Translations under genes and position numbers: made by a program
Part shown: positions 2,152 through 25,911 of the stretch, one piece after another
Layout: each line of letters starts with the position of its first letter
Numbering within the stretch: the stretch's first letter is position 1
The notes under the pieces: model-generated
What the model was told of the DNA's origin: nothing
What the model saw: only the letters and a program-made list of their open reading frames with translations
Databases searched by the model: none
DNA from: a candidate division WWE3 bacterium RIFCSPHIGHO2_01_FULL_40_23
GTDB lineage: Bacteria; Patescibacteriota; WWE3; UBA101185; 2-01-FULL-41-18
Assembly (NCBI GenBank): GCA_001772615.1
Contig: MEUZ01000001.1
Location: 120,623-184,622, forward strand
Length of the DNA stretch: 64,000 nucleotides
Direction: 5' to 3'

Positions 2152-2698
2152 TATGAAATTAAAATGGGTGGAAAAAAACAATGGCCGCAGGGAAAAGTTT
2201 GATAAATCAAAACTTGCAAGATCTATATATTATTCAATGCGTCATATAGGAAAGGGTACAAAAGAGCAGGCGAGTGAAATAGCTTTGGAGGTTTGGAAAA
2301 ATCTTAGTGAGAATGAGATTGTTTTCTCAAATAAGATTAAAGAAACGGTACTGCATACCTTAAACGACAGGGGCCTAACGGAGGAAGCTTCCACGTATGA
2401 ACTTACTTCACTTCATATAACGGGTGCCGATATAACAGAGGTAAGGAAAAGGGACGGGAGCTTACAAAAGTTTCACCCCTATAAAATCTTCAAATCAGTA
2501 CGCAAAGCCTGTCTTAACGCAGGTATAATCGGTGGAAAACTCTCCGAAGATATTACTAAAGAAGCAGTCCGTAAGCTTTCAATGGAATATCAAGATGAAG
2601 TTTCAACTCATGCGGTCAAAAAGGCGGTTTCAGAAGCCCTAAAGGATGCGGGTTTTGAAGCCGTGGAGAGGAAATATCTGACCCACCGTTACACTTAA
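2141..2698 (+). CDS. standalone protein with two tandem ATP-cone domains
   Basis: Two repeats with the ATP-cone signature (KWVEKNNGRREKFDKSKLARSI and EVRKRDGSLQKFHPYKIFKSV). No zinc ribbon and no catalytic domain. Confidence 0.5.
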   Translation: MRFNMKLKWVEKNNGRREKFDKSKLARSIYYSMRHIGKGTKEQASEIALEVWKNLSENEIVFSNKIKETVLHTLNDRGLTEEASTYELTSLHITGADITEVRKRDGSLQKFHPYKIFKSVRKACLNAGIIGGKLSEDITKEAVRKLSMEYQDEVSTHAVKKAVSEALKDAGFEAVERKYLTHRYT

Positions 2699-2760
2699 AA
2701 GACTTTGGTGGGTTGAAAATTTAAATTAGTGGCTTGCCATGAGCGAGCGAACGAGTCGAA

Positions 2761-2781
2761 TGGTGGGCGCGGATGGGATCG
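2761..2781. repeat. 21-nt direct repeat of the 3' end of the adjacent tRNA (TGGTGGGCGCGGATGGGATCG), att-like
   Basis: Exact copy of 2946..2966, which corresponds to the T-loop/T-stem/acceptor-3'/ACCA of the minus-strand tRNA. Confidence 0.7.
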
Positions 2782-2945
2782 GTCACGCGTCCTAGAAAAT
2801 CTACGTCGCTTACGTTCCTAGATTTTCTACGGCTCGCGACCCCGCCTCCCCTGAAGTATGCGCTTCGCTTAACTTCAGGGTGCGGCATTCGATCTTCAGT
2901 TCCCAATCTAAAGTTCACTTTATTTGCCAATTCACTCCGAGTGTT

Positions 2946-3020
2946 TGGTGGGCGCGGATGGGATCGAACCATCGACATCCACTTTATAAGAGTGGCGCTC
3001 TTCCACTGAGCTACGCGCCC
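2946..3020 (-). tRNA. tRNA with anticodon UAU (probably tRNA-Ile reading AUA), 75 nt, CCA encoded
   Basis: Manual fold of the minus strand: acceptor GGGCGCG/CGCGCCC, D-arm GCTC-AGTGGAA-GAGC, anticodon stem CCACT/AGTGG with loop CTTATAA (U33, A37), variable loop ATGTC, T-arm GATGG-TTCGATC-CCATC, discriminator A, CCA. Confidence 0.65.
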
Positions 3021-3096
3021 CAAACCATCTCGTAAGGATTATAAGATTGCTTCACTTCGTTCGCAATGACAAATAAATATGGCAGACTACGTTATA

Positions 3097-3471
3097 TCAA
3101 TTGGCTTTAATGAGGTAATTATCAGACTCTTTAACTCCTCCTTTTTCATCTTTTATAACAACCTTAAAATTATGATCTTTCCCAGGAAGAAGGCCGTTTA
3201 ACAATATTGAGTGCTCTTTTGAAACAGCGCTTTCGGAAGTTTCAACGCCGTAAAGCTCGGTCGTCCCATAAATAAGCTTGGCAGATACAGGAGCGCTTGT
3301 CTTAAATGAAACTCTTACCGAAGAAGGTGAAAGCTTTTGATAAGTAACATCCGTTATCCTTACACCGACAAATCTTCTCTTAAGGCTTTCTTGATTGCGG
3401 TAAACATACCCTACTAAAAGCCCTAGTGACATCATTAATAAAAACGCAACAATATACTTCTTATACTTCAT
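3097..3471 (-). CDS. small N-terminally anchored protein with an FN3/purple-acid-phosphatase-N-like beta domain
   Basis: N-terminal TM helix, then a beta-rich pattern (SVRVSFKTSAPVSAKLIYGTT...NFKVVIKDEKG). Confidence 0.4.
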   Translation of the reverse strand: MKYKKYIVAFLLMMSLGLLVGYVYRNQESLKRRFVGVRITDVTYQKLSPSSVRVSFKTSAPVSAKLIYGTTELYGVETSESAVSKEHSILLNGLLPGKDHNFKVVIKDEKGGVKESDNYLIKAN

Positions 3472-5865: not shown

Positions 5866-7080
5866 TTACCTTTTTAAAATCCTTTCCGCCTTTTCTATTC
5901 CGTATAAAAGTGCGTCCACATCTTCCTTTGTATTATAAAGATAAAAACTGGCTCTTGCCGTAGCGGGAATCTTTAATTTGTTGTGCAAAGGCATCGTGCA
6001 GTGATGGCCGCTTCTTATAGCAACCCCTTCCGTATCTAAAACTGACGCGAGATCGTGAGGATGGATACCCTCAAGAGTGAACGCTATTAAACCCGTCCTT
6101 CTTTTAACATCAGTGGGACCATAAGTTTTAAGCCCCGGCACCAGATTTAATTTAGCCAAAGAATAATTTAAAAGTCCTACTTCATGCTCACTAATATTTT
6201 CCATCCCAATCCTATTAAGGTAATCTATACCAGCCCCCAAACCAACAGCACCTGAAACATTAGGAGTGCCCGCTTCAAATCTCCCAGGGATATCGGCGTA
6301 AGTGGCCCGGTCAAAAAACACCTCCTTGATCATTCCGCCCCCGACCTGATAAGGTTCCATATTTTCCAAAATTTCCTTCTTTACATACAAAACCCCAATT
6401 CCCATAGGGGAGAGCATCTTATGACCTGAAAAAGCGTAAAAATCACAATCAAGGCTTAAAACATCAACCTTCATATGAGGCACAGCCTGCGCTCCATCAA
6501 CAAAAACCAAAGCACCTTCCAAGTGAGCTTCTCTTGAAATATCTTTAATTTCCTGGATAGTCCCCAGCACATTTGATGCATGGGAAACTGCAACAATCTT
6601 AGGCTTTAAACCTTGCAAAGACCCCGTAACAAAACCCTCCTCGTCAATGCTTAAGACCTTAAGATTTGCGTTTTTCTCTTTTGCCAGAATCTGCCAAGGG
6701 ATGATATTGCTATGATGCTCAATTTCCGTTACGGCAATCGTATCCCCTTTCTTAATATTTTTTCTTCCCCAAGAATAGGCGACTAGGTTAACGGCTTCAG
6801 TAGTACCCTTTGTGAAAATAATTTCCTCGGGATGCCTTGCATTTATAAATCTTGCAACTTTTTCTCTAGCCTCTTCATACATAGCTGTTGCCTCTTCAGA
6901 TAAAGTGTGGACACCGCGGTGGACATTGGCATTATGGTTTTTATAAAAATTATTTATCGCGTCAATAACCACTTGGGGCTTTTGGCTCGTCGCCGCATTA
7001 TCAAGATATGAAAGTTTTTTACCGTTTATCTCTCGGCTTAATATTGGGAAATCACTTTTTACTTTAGCTACGTCAAACAT
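5866..7080 (-). CDS. sufS: cysteine desulfurase (class V aminotransferase, SufS-like)
   Basis: PLP-lysine motif SGHKM and the catalytic Cys region HHCTMPLH, ~400 aa. Confidence 0.85.
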   Translation of the reverse strand: MFDVAKVKSDFPILSREINGKKLSYLDNAATSQKPQVVIDAINNFYKNHNANVHRGVHTLSEEATAMYEEAREKVARFINARHPEEIIFTKGTTEAVNLVAYSWGRKNIKKGDTIAVTEIEHHSNIIPWQILAKEKNANLKVLSIDEEGFVTGSLQGLKPKIVAVSHASNVLGTIQEIKDISREAHLEGALVFVDGAQAVPHMKVDVLSLDCDFYAFSGHKMLSPMGIGVLYVKKEILENMEPYQVGGGMIKEVFFDRATYADIPGRFEAGTPNVSGAVGLGAGIDYLNRIGMENISEHEVGLLNYSLAKLNLVPGLKTYGPTDVKRRTGLIAFTLEGIHPHDLASVLDTEGVAIRSGHHCTMPLHNKLKIPATARASFYLYNTKEDVDALLYGIEKAERILKR

Positions 7081-7101: not shown

Positions 7102-7422
7102 TTACCACTCCTCAAGAAAGACGTAAATGTCATCTCCTTCAAGCTTAACTTCATAAGTCTTTATTTTTACGGTTGGGGGAGGCCCCGTCACATCACCCGT
7201 CTTAAGATCAAACTTACCACCATGCCTTGGGCACTCAACACAGCATCCGTCAACAACTTCACCATCTCCCAAATCCCCCCCATCGTGAGTGCATACATCG
7301 GAGATCGCAAGAAACTCCCCGTTTAAGTTTGCAATGGCAACGGGAACTCCGTTTATCCTGAAAGGTTTAATTGAATTAACCGGTATATCCTTTGTGTTTG
7401 CTACTTTTACAAAATCAGCCAT
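7102..7422 (-). CDS. Rieske [2Fe-2S] ferredoxin
   Basis: CTHDGG...CPRHGG (CxH...CxxH) in a 106-aa protein. Confidence 0.7.
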   Translation of the reverse strand: MADFVKVANTKDIPVNSIKPFRINGVPVAIANLNGEFLAISDVCTHDGGDLGDGEVVDGCCVECPRHGGKFDLKTGDVTGPPPTVKIKTYEVKLEGDDIYVFLEEW

Positions 7423-8038
7423 ATTTTGATAACCTTTCTAAAATAATACTTTTTATTTCTTCCCTAATTTTACCATCTGTAATTTTTCCGAAAACCGCTT
7501 CAAAAAAACCTTCAAGAATAATCTTCACCGCTTCTTCTCTTGATAAGCCCCTGCTCATAAGATAAAAAATTTCCTCCTCGCTTATTCTCCCTGTTGTTGC
7601 TCCGTGAGTGGCTTTAACATCATCCGCTTCAATCTCAAGCATAGGTTGTGATTCATTTCTTGCCTTATCCCCCAGAATTAAAACGTCGTGGTCAAGATAA
7701 GAATCCGTTTTCTGCGCCTTCTTTTCAATTTTAATCACACCTTTAAACAAGGAGCTTGACGAATCTTTTAAAACACCTCTTATCTGTGTAAGAGATTTAG
7801 TATTAAAAGCTTTGTGAATTACATTTACCGTCAAATCAATCTTTTCTGATGAAAGGCCCGCGTAAACTCCAAGAATCTCAACTGAAGACCCCTCCTTATC
7901 CAAAATCACATCAAGTGACTTTGATACGCTTCCCCTTGGAACTTCCAGAATAACCTGTTTTAGGACGGGTGAAACATTCACTACCTGATATTTCCCATCA
8001 AGCCTAATTAGCTCAAAAGTCTTACCGGAAACTTTCAT
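7415..8038 (-). CDS. sufD: short SufD-like protein (SufBD-family C-terminal domain)
   Basis: C-terminal motif shared with SufB ([28 protein letters not shown]). Only 207 aa. Confidence 0.6.
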
Positions 8039-23562: not shown

Positions 23563-23637
23563 TCCGGCGTGGCGAAACGGTATCGCGGCTCCCTGTTAAG
23601 GAGATGATTGTAGGTTCGAATCCTATCGCCGGAGCCA
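23563..23637 (+). tRNA. tRNA-Asn (anticodon GUU), 75 nt, CCA encoded
   Basis: Manual fold: acceptor TCCGGCG/CGCCGGA, D-arm GCGA-AACGGTA-TCGC, anticodon stem GCTCC/GGAGA (one G-A mismatch) with loop CTGTTAA, T-arm GTAGG-TTCGAAT-CCTAT, discriminator G, CCA. Confidence 0.75.
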
Positions 23638-23658: not shown

Positions 23659-24045
23659 ATGAGTCAGGAAGAAATAATAAAATCGTGGAGAGAAAGTGCC
23701 AAAAGAAATTTGGATACAGCCAGAGATTTAATTAAATCAAAGCATTATGATTGGGCACTGTTCCTTGGTGAGCTTGCGCTAGAAAAATCACTGAAAGGAG
23801 CCATCACCAAACTACAGAATGACTCCCCACCTTATACCCACAACCTTGTCAAGCTAGCAGAACTTTCAAGCATAGCATTTACACAACAGGATTTAGAAGA
23901 TCTTGCCCAAATTACTAAATATAATGTCCAGGCAAGATATGATGATATCAAGTATCAGTTATATAAAATGGCAACAAAGGAATATACAGAAGAATGGTTT
24001 ACAAAAATAGAAAGGCTATATTCATGGATAGGAAAACATTATTAA
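23659..24045 (+). CDS. HEPN-domain protein (partner of the downstream MNT; putative toxin-antitoxin pair)
   Basis: All-alpha, with the ALFLGELALEKSLKGAI pattern. Overlaps the next gene by 22 nt. Confidence 0.5.
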   Translation: MSQEEIIKSWRESAKRNLDTARDLIKSKHYDWALFLGELALEKSLKGAITKLQNDSPPYTHNLVKLAELSSIAFTQQDLEDLAQITKYNVQARYDDIKYQLYKMATKEYTEEWFTKIERLYSWIGKHY

Positions 24046-24368: not shown

Positions 24369-24408
24369 AAGGAGATGGTTGTAGGTTCGAATCCTATCGC
24401 CGGAGCCA
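24369..24408. repeat. 40-nt direct repeat of the 3' end of tRNA-Asn (1 mismatch), att-like
   Basis: aaggagatgGttgtaggttcgaatcctatcgccggagcca versus tRNA positions 23598..23637 (gatgAttg). Overlaps the 3' end of the recombinase gene. Confidence 0.75.
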
Positions 24409-25911
24409 ATTAGACCGTATCCGAACCAAGTTTCGTGATACCAACGCCTCAAACTCTGGTACAAACTCGAAACTGGTTATTGTTCGTTCTTTTTCCAGAA
24501 ACGCCTTTGAAATGAAGAAGCGGAGAAACTGCTTTTGTTGAACCTTGGTCATTGCGTCGTAAAGCTCACCTATATTTTTCATACCCTGGATCACTTTCTC
24601 AATTTCTGAATCTTTGAGGTTAGTTGAGGGCTTATCCATTTCTATTATCTGTGCATCTACTTGTTTTAGTTCTTCCTTCAACGGCTGGTAGCGTGCCTTG
24701 ATTCTTTCCGATTCAACAAGTTCATCTCCACCAAACATTTTATCTTCAAGCACCTTCATCTTTTTATCAAGTATGTCTCTCCTTTGTCTAAGCGTTTTAA
24801 GTTGTTCAGGAACGCTTGTACCTTGCTCCTGTTTTACTTCCAACAGCACATTTCGTAAATTATTTAATGCCTTTTCGGTAAATACCGTGCCATGAAAAAA
24901 TGCGGATACTCTTTTATCTGCTTTCTCCAATGAAACATAGGTTTTCTCACAAGTCTTACATCTAAAATAGTTACCTTTTGGGTGGTACTCGGCAGCCATT
25001 AAACTGCCGCACTTGAGACAATGGGCATACCCAGCTAACAGGGTGGTATATTTTCTTGTGCGGTTTGCACCTTTGTTTCTTTTTTCAAACATAAGTAGAG
25101 ATTTCTTATACCAATCAACTGGCACAATTGGTTCGTGAGCCGCCTTTTCATATATTACCCCGTCATAAGACAGCCCGCCACAATAGAGTATGTTTTTAAG
25201 GATGTTGGTCATTGTATTTTTATTGACCTTACCACCAGAAGTATTTCTCAGACCCTGCTCGTATAAAATGTTTGTTATTGAGTAGACGGTGTGGTTTCCA
25301 GAAATCCACATTTCATAAGCCTTGTAAATAAAATGTTTCCTTTCTGGGTCAGGGTAAATCGGTTTGTCCTTTTGAAATGAGTTACAAAATCCGAGTGGAC
25401 TTTTTCCTGGTTTCATCCCTTTTTCTGCAAGTGCCTTCATGATCCTTTTCGTTTTTTTACCAGTACGCCTCGATTCCAATTGGTTGACCGCCGCAACAAT
25501 TACATCAAGGAAGTCGCCCTCGTCTGTGTCGCCATAATAAGAACCATCTAATGGAATTAGTTTTATGTTTCTTTTTTTCAGGAACGCCTTAACTGTCAGA
25601 TGATCCGCAACATTTCTTGCCAGTCTGCTTGAGTCTTGAACCAGTACGAGATCAACCGTGGCAGCATTGTCATCACAGTAATCCAGCAGTTCTTCCATAT
25701 CAGGTCTGTCCAGGTCTCTCGCACTTCGCCCCGAATCTTCAAATACTTTCAAAATGGTTATGTTGTTTTGACTCACAAAGTTTTGAAAAAGTTGGTCTTG
25801 CACTTCCAAGCTATGTCCTGTAAGAGCCTGGTTTGGTGTTGAAACTCGTTTGTAGCACACAGATTTTAACATTGTGCCTGTCTTTGGTTTTATATCTTCT
25901 AATCCGTACAT
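24394..25911 (-). CDS. large serine recombinase (resolvase/invertase N-domain + recombinase domain + zinc ribbon)
   Basis: Catalytic motif YKRVSTPNQ near the N-terminus, a C-terminal CLKCGS...CKTC zinc ribbon and a coiled-coil tail. True start may be the internal MLKSV. Confidence 0.8.
   Translation of the reverse strand: MYGLEDIKPKTGTMLKSVCYKRVSTPNQALTGHSLEVQDQLFQNFVSQNNITILKVFEDSGRSARDLDRPDMEELLDYCDDNAATVDLVLVQDSSRLARNVADHLTVKAFLKKRNIKLIPLDGSYYGDTDEGDFLDVIVAAVNQLESRRTGKKTKRIMKALAEKGMKPGKSPLGFCNSFQKDKPIYPDPERKHFIYKAYEMWISGNHTVYSITNILYEQGLRNTSGGKVNKNTMTNILKNILYCGGLSYDGVIYEKAAHEPIVPVDWYKKSLLMFEKRNKGANRTRKYTTLLAGYAHCLKCGSLMAAEYHPKGNYFRCKTCEKTYVSLEKADKRVSAFFHGTVFTEKALNNLRNVLLEVKQEQGTSVPEQLKTLRQRRDILDKKMKVLEDKMFGGDELVESERIKARYQPLKEELKQVDAQIIEMDKPSTNLKDSEIEKVIQGMKNIGELYDAMTKVQQKQFLRFFISKAFLEKERTITSFEFVPEFEALVSRNLVRIRSNWLRR

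What the first reader, a model, noticed from the sequence alone, without database searches (positions are those of the whole stretch)
2946..3020. tRNA with a genomically encoded UAU anticodon (probable tRNA-Ile for AUA)
Most bacteria read AUA with tRNA-Ile2(CAU), modified to lysidine by TilS. A genuine UAU anticodon implies a different strategy, a modified U34 as in Mycoplasma mobile and a few other lineages, and predicts that tilS may be absent from this genome. The fold is canonical (U33, A37, 7-bp acceptor, CCA).
Basis: partly seen in the sequence, partly recalled or inferred. Interest (0 to 1): 0.55.

Follow-up and report, generated by a model that had tools for sequence, protein, structure and literature searches.

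The report
Isoleucine tRNA(UAU) of a CPR bacterium
This is a genuine isoleucine tRNA with a gene-encoded UAU anticodon in a groundwater 'candidate division WWE3' (CPR) bacterium, a group that mostly lacks the enzyme TilS that other bacteria need to read the AUA codon, so it is a new example of a known but supposedly rare decoding strategy.

Summary
A canonical 75-nt tRNA lies at 2946-3020 on the minus strand, with anticodon UAU (ARAGORN; Rfam tRNA 72.2 bits).

The window comes from a Rifle-aquifer candidate division WWE3 bacterium (CPR/Patescibacteria). AUA is a major codon here: 24.8 per 1000 codons and 33% of Ile codons. In conserved proteins it aligns with Ile/Val/Leu and never with Met.

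The same tRNA sits at the same syntenic position in three other WWE3-clade genomes. A truncated scan of species-representative genomes returned 120 tRNA(UAU) genes, at least 71 of them from CPR.

Published family counts show TilS in 123 of 2321 CPR genomes against 866 of 1198 other bacteria. MnmG is in 5 of 2321.

I found no tilS and no Ile2(CAU)-like tRNA in about 79 kb of this genome, but the rest of it could not be searched.

Best reading: this tRNA is the TilS-independent AUA decoder, as in Mycoplasma mobile, probably with unmodified U34. It is a new member of a known kind.

Unexpected extra: directly downstream (2761-2945) lies a member of an uncatalogued structured element family. These elements follow tRNA genes and repeat the tRNA's 3' end from C56.

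The parts
2946..3020 (-). tRNA-Ile(UAU) gene, 75 nt, CCA encoded
   Evidence: ARAGORN; Rfam RF00005 72.2 bits; cloverleaf minimum-free-energy fold. An identical gene occurs in five independent metagenome assemblies. It is syntenic in WWE3 relatives L131, L132 and L133.
3038..3066 (-). Promoter-like site (TTGCGA, 17 nt, TATAAT) directly upstream of the tRNA
   Evidence: Consensus scan, 10 of 12 matches. This is a consensus match only.
2761..2945 (-). Downstream non-coding element: spacer plus structured core plus a 21-nt copy of the tRNA's 3' end. No terminator-like site separates it from the tRNA.
   Evidence: Covariance model R1, built from 41 metagenomic copies, hits 2761-2898 on the minus strand at 41.9 bits, E=4e-9. 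No terminator-like site was found in 2600-3200.
2881..2897 (-). 5' motif GAAGATCGAAUGCCGCA of the element. In the family it reads NNGGANUCGAA.GCCG.A, and its first 9 nt pair with positions 56-64 of the 3' copy.
   Evidence: Alignment A3. The P1 helix covaries with tRNA identity and has at least 7 of 9 pairs in 50 of 69 copies. In the window only about 5 pairs form.
2849..2880 (-). Hairpin 1 of the element (CCCUGAAGU...ACUUCAGGG)
   Evidence: Read from the sequence. The equivalent hairpin has a different sequence but the same pairing in L131 and across the family.
2837..2848 (-). Invariant motif GAGGCGGGGUCG
2787..2836 (-). Hairpin 2 of the element (variable sequence, conserved pairing)
   Evidence: All 10 of its base pairs show compensatory changes in A3. 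The window and L005 differ by an A-U to U-G change in this stem.
2782..2786 (-). Invariant GUGAC junction immediately before the tRNA-end copy
2761..2781 (-). Exact 21-nt direct repeat of the tRNA's 3' end (C56 to A76: CGAUCCCAUCCGCGCCCACCA)
   Evidence: In the family the repeat starts exactly at C56 in 73 of 76 copies.

Best explanation
The gene encodes a functional tRNA-Ile whose unedited UAU anticodon reads the abundant AUA codons of a candidate division WWE3 (CPR/Patescibacteria) bacterium. It takes the place of the tRNA-Ile2(CAU)-plus-TilS (lysidine) system of ordinary bacteria.

Shown:
- The tRNA, its anticodon and its Ile-type identity nucleotides.
- Heavy use of AUA as an Ile-like codon.
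- Conservation of the gene at one syntenic position across the WWE3 clade and its wide occurrence in CPR.
- Strong depletion of TilS and MnmG in CPR genomes.

Inferred:
- This particular genome lacks tilS and a tRNA-Ile2(CAU).
- U34 is unmodified or lacks any xm5 group, because MnmG is missing from CPR. It would then pair strongly with A and only weakly with G, as measured for M. mobile and for the B. subtilis tilS-deletion suppressor.
- The IleRS of this lineage accepts U34.
- Competition from tRNA-Met, and possibly the ribosome, keeps AUG misreading low.
For: - tRNA calls and fold.
- Organism: proteins identical to candidate division WWE3 bacterium RIFCSPHIGHO2_01_FULL_40_23 / RIFCSPLOWO2_01_FULL_41_18.
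- Codon usage: 378 ATA in 15228 codons, which is 24.8 per 1000 and 33% of Ile codons. That exceeds ATC (16.0) and ATG (15.7).
- Codon meaning: in SufB, SufC, SufS and GlyA aligned with E. coli, 29 ATA codons face I 13, V 5, L 8 and M 0. ATG codons face M in 9 of 31.
- Synteny: the order Suf operon, NifU, DUF1858, S30AE, tRNA-Ile(UAU), then XerC-like, DivIC, tRNA-fMet, tRNA-Met, TrpRS, FtsH holds in three other WWE3-clade genomes, with compensatory changes in every tRNA stem.
All 120 are ARAGORN Ile(tat); at least 71 are named CPR lineages; 122 of 123 have A73.
- TilS family: 123 of 2321 CPR genomes against 866 of 1198 non-CPR. MnmG: 5 against 897.
- No PF01171/TilS in about 79 kb of this genome or in four relatives' loci.
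- Nearby CAU tRNAs are an initiator (C1xA72) and one elongator class only.
- Precedents: unmodified U34 tRNA-Ile(UAU) works in M. mobile (PMC3575796) and in B. subtilis (PMC3919564).
Against: - tilS, tRNA-Ile2(CAU) and IleRS of this genome were not examined. Only about 8% of a roughly 1 Mb genome was visible.
- About 5% of CPR genomes do carry TilS, and some bacteria have both systems (L. casei, L. plantarum, Cyanothece).
- The modification state of U34 cannot be read from DNA.
- This tRNA differs substantially from the syntenic tRNA of other WWE3 genomes (57 of 72 identical to L128, the only one scored). It also sits next to a recombination-prone element, so replacement by transfer cannot be excluded.
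Confidence: 0.8

Rival explanations
1. Redundant decoder: the genome also has tilS and tRNA-Ile2(CAU), and the UAU tRNA is a second or minor AUA reader, as in Lactobacillus casei, L. plantarum or Cyanothece.
For: Such mixed genomes exist. 123 CPR genomes do have a TilS family member. Most of this genome was not seen.
Against: TilS is missing from about 95% of CPR genomes. No TilS was found in about 79 kb here or beside ftsH in five WWE3-clade loci. CPR loci show only two CAU tRNA classes, initiator and one elongator type, often clustered with the UAU tRNA. AUA at 25 per 1000 codons needs a major decoder.
Confidence: 0.12
2. Imported or mobile tRNA: the gene was brought in by a phage or integrative element and is not part of the core translation set.
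For: Its 3' end is duplicated 165 nt downstream, and one haplotype (L005) has a different downstream arrangement. The best phage matches are T4-like phage tRNAs at about 80% identity. It differs from the syntenic tRNA of other WWE3 genomes (57 of 72 identical to L128, the only one scored).
Against: Position and orientation are conserved between S30AE and the XerC-like gene across WWE3 genomes whose FtsH is only 56-61% identical to the window's. No integrase, phage gene or other protein family is linked to the downstream element: at most 7 of 119 loci share any neighbouring protein family. Phage hits cover only generic tRNA parts. The viral-contig scan for the element gave only chance matches.
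Confidence: 0.05
3. Different identity or codon meaning: the tRNA is charged with another amino acid (for example Met) or AUA is reassigned.
For: A UAU anticodon could in principle read AUG as well. CPR lineages with recoding exist (SR1/Gracilibacteria read UGA as Gly).
Against: ATA codons align with Ile/Val/Leu and never with Met in four conserved proteins. A73, C4-G69, U12-A23, A37 and A38 fit the Ile identity set (sequence). A separate elongator tRNA-Met is present nearby.
Confidence: 0.03

Closest known systems
Mycoplasma mobile tRNA-Ile2(UAU) system (Taniguchi et al. 2013, PMC3575796)
   Same: Gene-encoded UAU anticodon on a canonical tRNA with A37. The lineage lacks TilS. U34 is probably unmodified. 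AUA is read as Ile.
   Different: A different phylum, and here the trait appears clade-wide rather than confined to a single species. The M. mobile hallmarks were not examined: IleRS Arg865 in place of the Trp conserved in TilS-bearing bacteria, and a ribosome that rejects AUG. In M. mobile U34 was shown chemically to be unmodified; here that is inferred only from the absence of MnmG in CPR.
Bifidobacterium / Neorickettsia tRNA-Ile(UAU) with eukaryote-type IleRS (PMC3575796 discussion)
   Same: Bacteria without tilS that carry a tRNA-Ile(TAT) gene.
   Different: Those use a horizontally acquired eukaryote-type IleRS. The IleRS type of WWE3 is unknown.
Lactobacillus casei / L. plantarum, Cyanothece, Ferrimonas (tilS plus tRNA-Ile(TAT))
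   Same: A tRNA-Ile(TAT) gene in a bacterium.
   Different: In those organisms it is redundant with the lysidine system. That is unlikely here but not excluded.
Bacillus subtilis tilS-deletion suppressor tRNA-Ile1(G34U) (Kohrer et al. 2013/14, PMC3919564)
   Same: Unmodified U34 binds AUA strongly and AUG weakly. This shows the mechanism can work on an ordinary bacterial ribosome.
   Different: It is a laboratory mutant derived from tRNA-Ile1(GAU), not a natural dedicated gene.
Archaeal tRNA-Ile(UAU) in Nanoarchaeota/Korarchaeota lacking TiaS (own knowledge)
   Same: Small-genome, episymbiotic lineages that replace the modified-C decoder with UAU. DPANN archaeal genomes also appeared in my scan (L061, L081, L084, L091, L114).
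   Different: A different domain, and the missing enzyme is different (TiaS/agmatidine).
For the downstream element: att-site duplications of tRNA 3' ends left by integrative elements (own knowledge), and permuted tmRNA (Rfam RF04321)
   Same: A direct repeat of the 3' part of a tRNA gene beginning in the T-loop. There is weak Rfam similarity to permuted tmRNA (E=0.016 to 2.1).
   Different: The element is only 85-175 nt. It has no integrase or any other linked gene. It follows tRNAs of at least 30 anticodons. It has a conserved core with covarying hairpins, has no tag reading frame, and matches no Rfam 15 family.

Membership tests
tRNA (Rfam RF00005) | Cloverleaf with conserved U8, G18G19, U33 and the T-loop GUUCGAxxC; score above the gathering threshold | tested here: met
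   72.2 bits against a gathering score of 29, full-length match; cloverleaf minimum-free-energy fold; ARAGORN call.
tRNA-Ile (IleRS substrate; E. coli identity set, own knowledge of Nureki 1994) | A73, C4-G69, U12-A23, A35, U36, A37, A38, C29-G41 | tested here: met
   All are present in the sequence except 29-41, which is A-U. A73 is found in 122 of 123 collected tRNA(UAU) genes and C4-G69 in 83 of 123. Charging itself is not testable here.
TilS-independent AUA decoding by tRNA-Ile(UAU) (M. mobile type) | Genomically encoded UAU anticodon | tested here: met
TilS-independent AUA decoding by tRNA-Ile(UAU) (M. mobile type) | AUA codons in use and meaning Ile | tested here: met
   24.8 per 1000 codons. 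ATA codons align with I/V/L and never with M.
TilS-independent AUA decoding by tRNA-Ile(UAU) (M. mobile type) | No tilS in the genome | tested here: inconclusive
   None in about 79 kb of this genome. Lineage prior: TilS is in 123 of 2321 CPR genomes.
TilS-independent AUA decoding by tRNA-Ile(UAU) (M. mobile type) | No tRNA-Ile2(CAU) gene | tested here: inconclusive
   The only CAU tRNAs within about 10 kb are an initiator (C1xA72) and an elongator-Met-like gene that is orthologous across WWE3. The rest of the genome was not seen, and no isotype-specific model was available.
TilS-independent AUA decoding by tRNA-Ile(UAU) (M. mobile type) | IleRS adapted to U34 (Arg/Lys at the E. coli Trp905 position, or eukaryote-type IleRS) | not tested
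   No IleRS gene of this organism or of any CPR genome could be retrieved. The class I synthetases found near tRNA(UAU) in other loci are ValRS or LeuRS, plus one archaeal IleRS.
TilS-independent AUA decoding by tRNA-Ile(UAU) (M. mobile type) | U34 unmodified | not testable with these tools
   Indirect only: MnmG is present in 5 of 2321 CPR genomes, so cmnm5/mnm5 modification is unlikely.
Integrative-element att duplication at a tRNA gene (considered for 2761-2945) | Integrase or cargo genes between or beside the repeats | tested here: not met
   There are 164 nt of non-coding sequence between the repeats. No recurrent neighbouring protein family was found in 119 loci.
tmRNA / permuted tmRNA (considered for 2761-2945) | Rfam score above gathering; tag reading frame; complete T-arm | tested here: not met
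   12.5-28.9 bits against a gathering score of 47. ARAGORN finds no tmRNA. The 5' strand of the T-stem is absent from the copy.

The most novel reading that the evidence does not exclude
Lysidine-free AUA decoding may not be a rare oddity. It may be the normal state of the whole CPR/Patescibacteria, and of DPANN archaea. These lineages would read AUA with a plain UAU anticodon carrying neither lysidine (no TilS) nor an xm5U group (no MnmG). That would fit the proposal that UAU was the ancestral AUA decoder.

In addition, the tRNA here is followed by a member of an undescribed family of structured RNA or mobile elements. Each copy carries the 3' end of whichever tRNA it follows, starting exactly at C56, and may act at the RNA level as a tRNA-end mimic or as an RNA-templated insertion.
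Probability: 0.5. Interest if true: 0.7.

Novelty: new member of a known kind. Interest (0 to 1): 0.5.

Why it matters
TilS is usually described as essential and nearly universal in bacteria. A 2026 preprint still calls bacterial tRNA-Ile(UAU) rare.

This window, the genome scan and the published family counts point the other way. A very large bacterial radiation reads a common codon (AUA, 2.5% of all codons here) with a bare UAU anticodon.

That raises testable questions:
- How do CPR IleRS enzymes accept U34?
- How is AUG misreading avoided without wobble modification?
- Is UAU ancestral or secondarily regained?

It also matters for annotation, since CAU tRNAs in CPR should not be called Ile2, and for using TilS as an antibacterial target or phylogenetic marker.

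I found no paper in the searchable library that links CPR with lysidine, TilS or tRNA-Ile(UAU). That does not prove nobody has reported it.

Tried and rejected
- **TilS in WWE3 by protein search.** A three-sequence TilS profile (E. coli, Geobacillus, Aquifex) returned only Enterobacteria and Aquificae among the 120 rows shown. It was useless for CPR.
- **The usual tilS-(hpt)-ftsH neighbourhood.** I used the WWE3 FtsH as bait. In the window's genome and all four relatives' loci examined, TrpRS or hypothetical genes precede ftsH, not tilS. The 434-aa unannotated ORF upstream of TrpRS is a membrane-anchored repeat protein with no PP-loop.
- **Local TilS HMM and E. coli IleRS phmmer over all ORFs of the loci held at the time (130, 134).** No TilS was found. 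The class I synthetase hits are ValRS, LeuRS and one archaeal IleRS. The expected number of chance tilS hits was below 1, so this is uninformative.
- **Supplements.** None are held for Taniguchi 2013 or Kantor 2013.
- **The downstream repeat as a classical att site, a tmRNA or a known Rfam family.** All rejected.
- **Viral-contig scan for the element.** Only chance matches: no GAGS prefix and no upstream duplicate.
- **Empty-site comparison of L131 with L133.** The flanks are too diverged to be informative.
- **An acceptor-5'-strand mimic as a general feature of the element.** It is perfect in only 6 of 69 copies.
- **The third protein search and the representative-library search** were left unused because no CPR seed sequence was available.

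Full report
**1. The observation**

ARAGORN finds two tRNAs in the window. One is tRNA-Ile(tat) at 2946-3020 on the minus strand. Rfam's tRNA model matches 2949-3020 full length at 72.2 bits, against a gathering score of 29 (E=7.5e-14).

The 75-nt RNA folds by itself into the cloverleaf (-30.2 kcal/mol, z=-2.96). The anticodon loop is C32-U33-U34-A35-U36-A37-A38, the discriminator is A73, and CCA is encoded.

A sigma-70-like promoter (TTGCGA, 17 nt, TATAAT) ends 18 nt upstream. No terminator-like site follows the tRNA.

**2. The organism**

SufS, SufB, GlyA and FolD of the window are identical to proteins of candidate division WWE3 bacterium RIFCSPHIGHO2_01_FULL_40_23 / RIFCSPLOWO2_01_FULL_41_18. 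These are Rifle-aquifer MAGs of the Candidate Phyla Radiation (CPR, also called Patescibacteria); the longest contig carrying these proteins is 258.5 kb.

The same locus was assembled independently in several ENA, JGI and Logan metagenomes. The tRNA is identical in the five that cover it.

**3. What AUA means and how much it is used**

In 47 ORFs (15228 codons), ATA occurs 378 times. That is 24.8 per 1000 codons and 33% of Ile codons, more than ATC (16.0) or ATG (15.7).

I aligned SufB, SufC, SufS and GlyA with their E. coli orthologues (43-54% identity). The 29 ATA codons face Ile 13, Val 5, Leu 8 and Met 0. ATG codons face Met in 9 of 31. AUA is therefore a frequent, ordinary Ile codon and needs an efficient decoder.

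**4. Identity of the tRNA**

The sequence carries A73, C4-G69, U12-A23, A37 and A38, which belong to the E. coli IleRS identity set (own knowledge: Nureki 1994). Only 29-41 differs (A-U).

The two CAU tRNAs within 10 kb upstream of the window are:
- an initiator, CGCGGGG...CCCCGCA with the C1xA72 mismatch;
- a second gene, GCCAGCG..., orthologous to GCCAACG/GCCGATG genes in other WWE3 genomes.

That second gene belongs to the single non-initiator CAU class seen across CPR loci, so it is most simply the elongator tRNA-Met.

**5. Conservation**

Three further WWE3-clade genomes carry a tRNA-Ile(UAU) in the same place, right after the S30AE gene or the small gene that follows it. Their FtsH proteins are only 56-61% identical to the window's. 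They are L131 (the 897-kb contig MEWB01000001), L132 and L133.

Every stem has compensatory changes. The acceptor stem is GGGCGCG in the window, GGGUGUU in L131 and L133, and GGGUGAU in L132. The anticodon stem is CCACU/AGUGG in the window and GACGU/ACGUC in L131.

I scanned the 185,579 species-representative genomes with a generic tRNA(UAU) pattern.
- All 120 hits are ARAGORN tRNA-Ile(tat).
- 71 are named CPR lineages: Saccharibacteria, Parcu-/Paceibacteria, Uhr-, Kaiser-, Nomura-, Taylor-, Vogel-, Adler-, Woese-, Levy-, Shapiro-, Dojka- and Peribacteria, and WWE3.
- The rest are unclassified MAGs, Planctomycetota, Chloroflexota, a few others and five archaeal MAGs (two named Micrarchaeota).
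- 122 of the 123 collected genes have A73, and 120 have seven paired acceptor positions.

The sample is truncated and the pattern fixes many positions. It therefore shows breadth, not a calibrated frequency.

**6. TilS**

No ORF of the window, of the 8.7 kb upstream (L008) or of the 6.4 kb downstream (L136) carries PF01171 or matches a TilS profile. That is about 79 kb of a roughly 1 Mb genome, so it decides nothing by itself.

Direct protein searches could not reach CPR TilS. The classical position upstream of ftsH is occupied by TrpRS or hypothetical genes in five WWE3-clade loci.

Decisive lineage-level evidence came from the literature. In Supplementary Data 1 (Table S2) of Meheust et al. 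2019, the tRNA(Ile)-lysidine synthase family (K04075, PF01171) is present in 123 CPR genomes and 866 non-CPR bacterial genomes, and is flagged 'depleted'. It is present in no archaea. The study used 2321 CPR, 1198 non-CPR and 79 archaeal genomes. For scale, EF-Ts is present in 1983 CPR and 1046 non-CPR genomes. It is the only PF01171 family in the table.

MnmG (K03495) is in 5 CPR genomes against 897 non-CPR. MnmA is common in both (1495 and 948).

The paper's main text does not mention lysidine. None of my searches combining lysidine with CPR terms returned a paper containing both. A February 2026 preprint still describes bacterial tRNA-Ile(UAU) as 'rare cases'.

**7. Mechanism**

The closest studied system is Mycoplasma mobile. 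There tRNA-Ile2(UAU) has an unmodified U34, IleRS has Arg865 in place of the Trp conserved in TilS-bearing bacteria, and the ribosome discriminates AUA from AUG (PMC3575796). In the B. subtilis tilS-deletion suppressor, an unmodified U34 tRNA-Ile binds AUA strongly and AUG weakly on normal ribosomes (PMC3919564).

CPR lack MnmG, so U34 of this tRNA most likely has no xm5 modification. MnmA acts on Lys/Glu/Gln tRNAs (own knowledge). I infer, but did not show, that this tRNA is the main and probably only AUA decoder here, and that the WWE3 IleRS accepts U34.

**8. Surroundings: an unexpected element**

The last 21 nt of the tRNA (C56 to A76) recur exactly at 2761-2781, 165 nt downstream on the same strand. 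The interval holds these parts in order:
- a 5' motif, GAAGAUCGAAUGCCGCA;
- hairpin 1;
- the invariant motif GAGGCGGGGUCG;
- hairpin 2;
- GUGAC, followed directly by the copy.

The distant WWE3 genome L131 has the same motifs with different, compensating hairpin sequences. It ends with a copy of its own tRNA's 3' end, 20 of 21 identical.

I estimate about 10 would be expected by chance.
- 89 of 121 copies lie within 400 nt downstream of a tRNA, and the tRNAs carry at least 30 different anticodons.
- In 76 copies the sequence after GUGAC repeats that tRNA. The repeat starts exactly at C56 in 73 of the 76 and typically runs 18-25 nt. It often includes 1-5 nt of trailer.
- CCA is present only in the downstream copy in 9 cases, and only in the tRNA gene in 1 case.

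On 41 sequences the proposed structure has a covariation score of 0.533. Column shuffles give 0.153 (0 of 500 reach the observed value) and slid registers give at most 0.124. All 10 pairs of hairpin 2 show compensatory changes. The 5' motif pairs with positions 57-64 of the copy and covaries with tRNA identity.

A covariance model built from these sequences scores the window copy at 41.9 bits (E=4e-9). It also finds copies in Taylor-, Vogel-, Adler- and Paceibacteria, Saccharibacteria and WWE3 genomes.

No Rfam 15 family matches. No protein family is linked to the element. Viral contigs gave only chance hits.

Within one genome, copies can be old and divergent (L121 and L018, about 60% identical). 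They can also be recent, with the same core attached to different tRNA-like ends (L036, 92% identical).

I cannot decide between two readings:
- (a) an insertion element that targets the 3' end of tRNA genes and duplicates C56 to the end;
- (b) a functional RNA that mimics the 3' third of its tRNA.

The window copy is a degenerate member, with only 5 pairs in P1. The L005 haplotype looks like a recombinant with another copy.

**9. Verdict**

It is a new member of a known kind, TilS-independent AUA decoding by tRNA-Ile(UAU). Its added interest is that it appears to be the rule in a very large bacterial radiation.

The absence of tilS from this genome, the IleRS adaptation and the state of U34 all remain to be shown.

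Noticed in passing
window 2761-2945 (minus strand); also L131:833-944, L112:334-470, L121:1044-1139 and 7359-7476, L036:5736-5833 and 6548-6647, and L259-L377: An uncatalogued structured element family lies directly 3' of tRNA genes of many anticodons in CPR and groundwater metagenomes. It has a conserved core (GAGGCGGGGU[C/A]G ... GUGAC) with two covarying hairpins, followed by a copy of the upstream tRNA from exactly C56 to its 3' end. There is no Rfam match and no linked protein gene.
   Followed up: partly
L005:4792-4975 compared with window 2761-2945: A strain-level haplotype shares the tRNA and the first part of the element. It then diverges inside hairpin 2, with one A-U to U-G change that keeps the pair. 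It ends in a different tRNA-like 3' end (CGAUUCUCUCCCUUCCCACCA) and continues into different genes (a 195-aa ORF, tRNA-Val, tRNA-Gln, a response regulator). It looks like recombination between two element copies.
   Followed up: partly
window 23608-23637 and 24379-24408; ORF 23659-24045; ORF 24394-25911 (minus strand): The last 30 nt of tRNA-Asn(GUU) are repeated exactly 771 bp downstream. The interval holds one 128-aa ORF. A large serine recombinase (Resolvase plus Recombinase domains, 505 aa) whose stop-codon end overlaps the second repeat by 15 nt (24394-24408). This is probably an integration scar or the edge of an integrated element.
   Followed up: partly
L008:1-1412 (about 7.3-8.7 kb before the window start): The FtsH of this organism is 1046 aa and contains an intein (PF14890). 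Relatives have intein-free FtsH of about 600-620 aa.
   Followed up: no
L014:98-483, L023:5794-6001, L118:4723-4902, L131:757-7168, L132:7158-8942: In CPR genomes the initiator tRNA, the elongator tRNA-Met and often tRNA-Ile(UAU) lie close together. Only two CAU tRNA classes were seen in these loci.
   Followed up: partly
Meheust et al. 2019, Supplementary Data 1 (PMC6744442): MnmG/GidA is present in 5 of 2321 CPR genomes against 897 of 1198 other bacteria, whereas MnmA is common in both. CPR therefore probably make s2U but no (c)mnm5U at wobble positions. I did not find this discussed in the papers I could search.
   Followed up: partly
L013, L035, L037, L066, L086, L093, L096, L110, L115, L126, L127: Eleven MAGs labelled 'uncultured Gammaproteobacteria' (TPA assemblies) carry tRNA-Ile(UAU) genes. 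At least one of them (L013) closely resembles a Saccharibacteria/CPR gene (L016). The taxonomic labels may be wrong.
   Followed up: no
L026, L059, L081, L108, L125: A ValRS gene lies within a few kb of tRNA-Ile(UAU) in five unrelated loci. In the archaeal locus L061 an IleRS lies next to it.
   Followed up: no
window 3097-3471 (minus strand): A 124-aa ORF with no family match follows the S30AE hibernation-factor gene and immediately precedes the tRNA promoter. A similarly placed 127-aa ORF is present in L133; L131 has no ORF in that interval.
   Followed up: no
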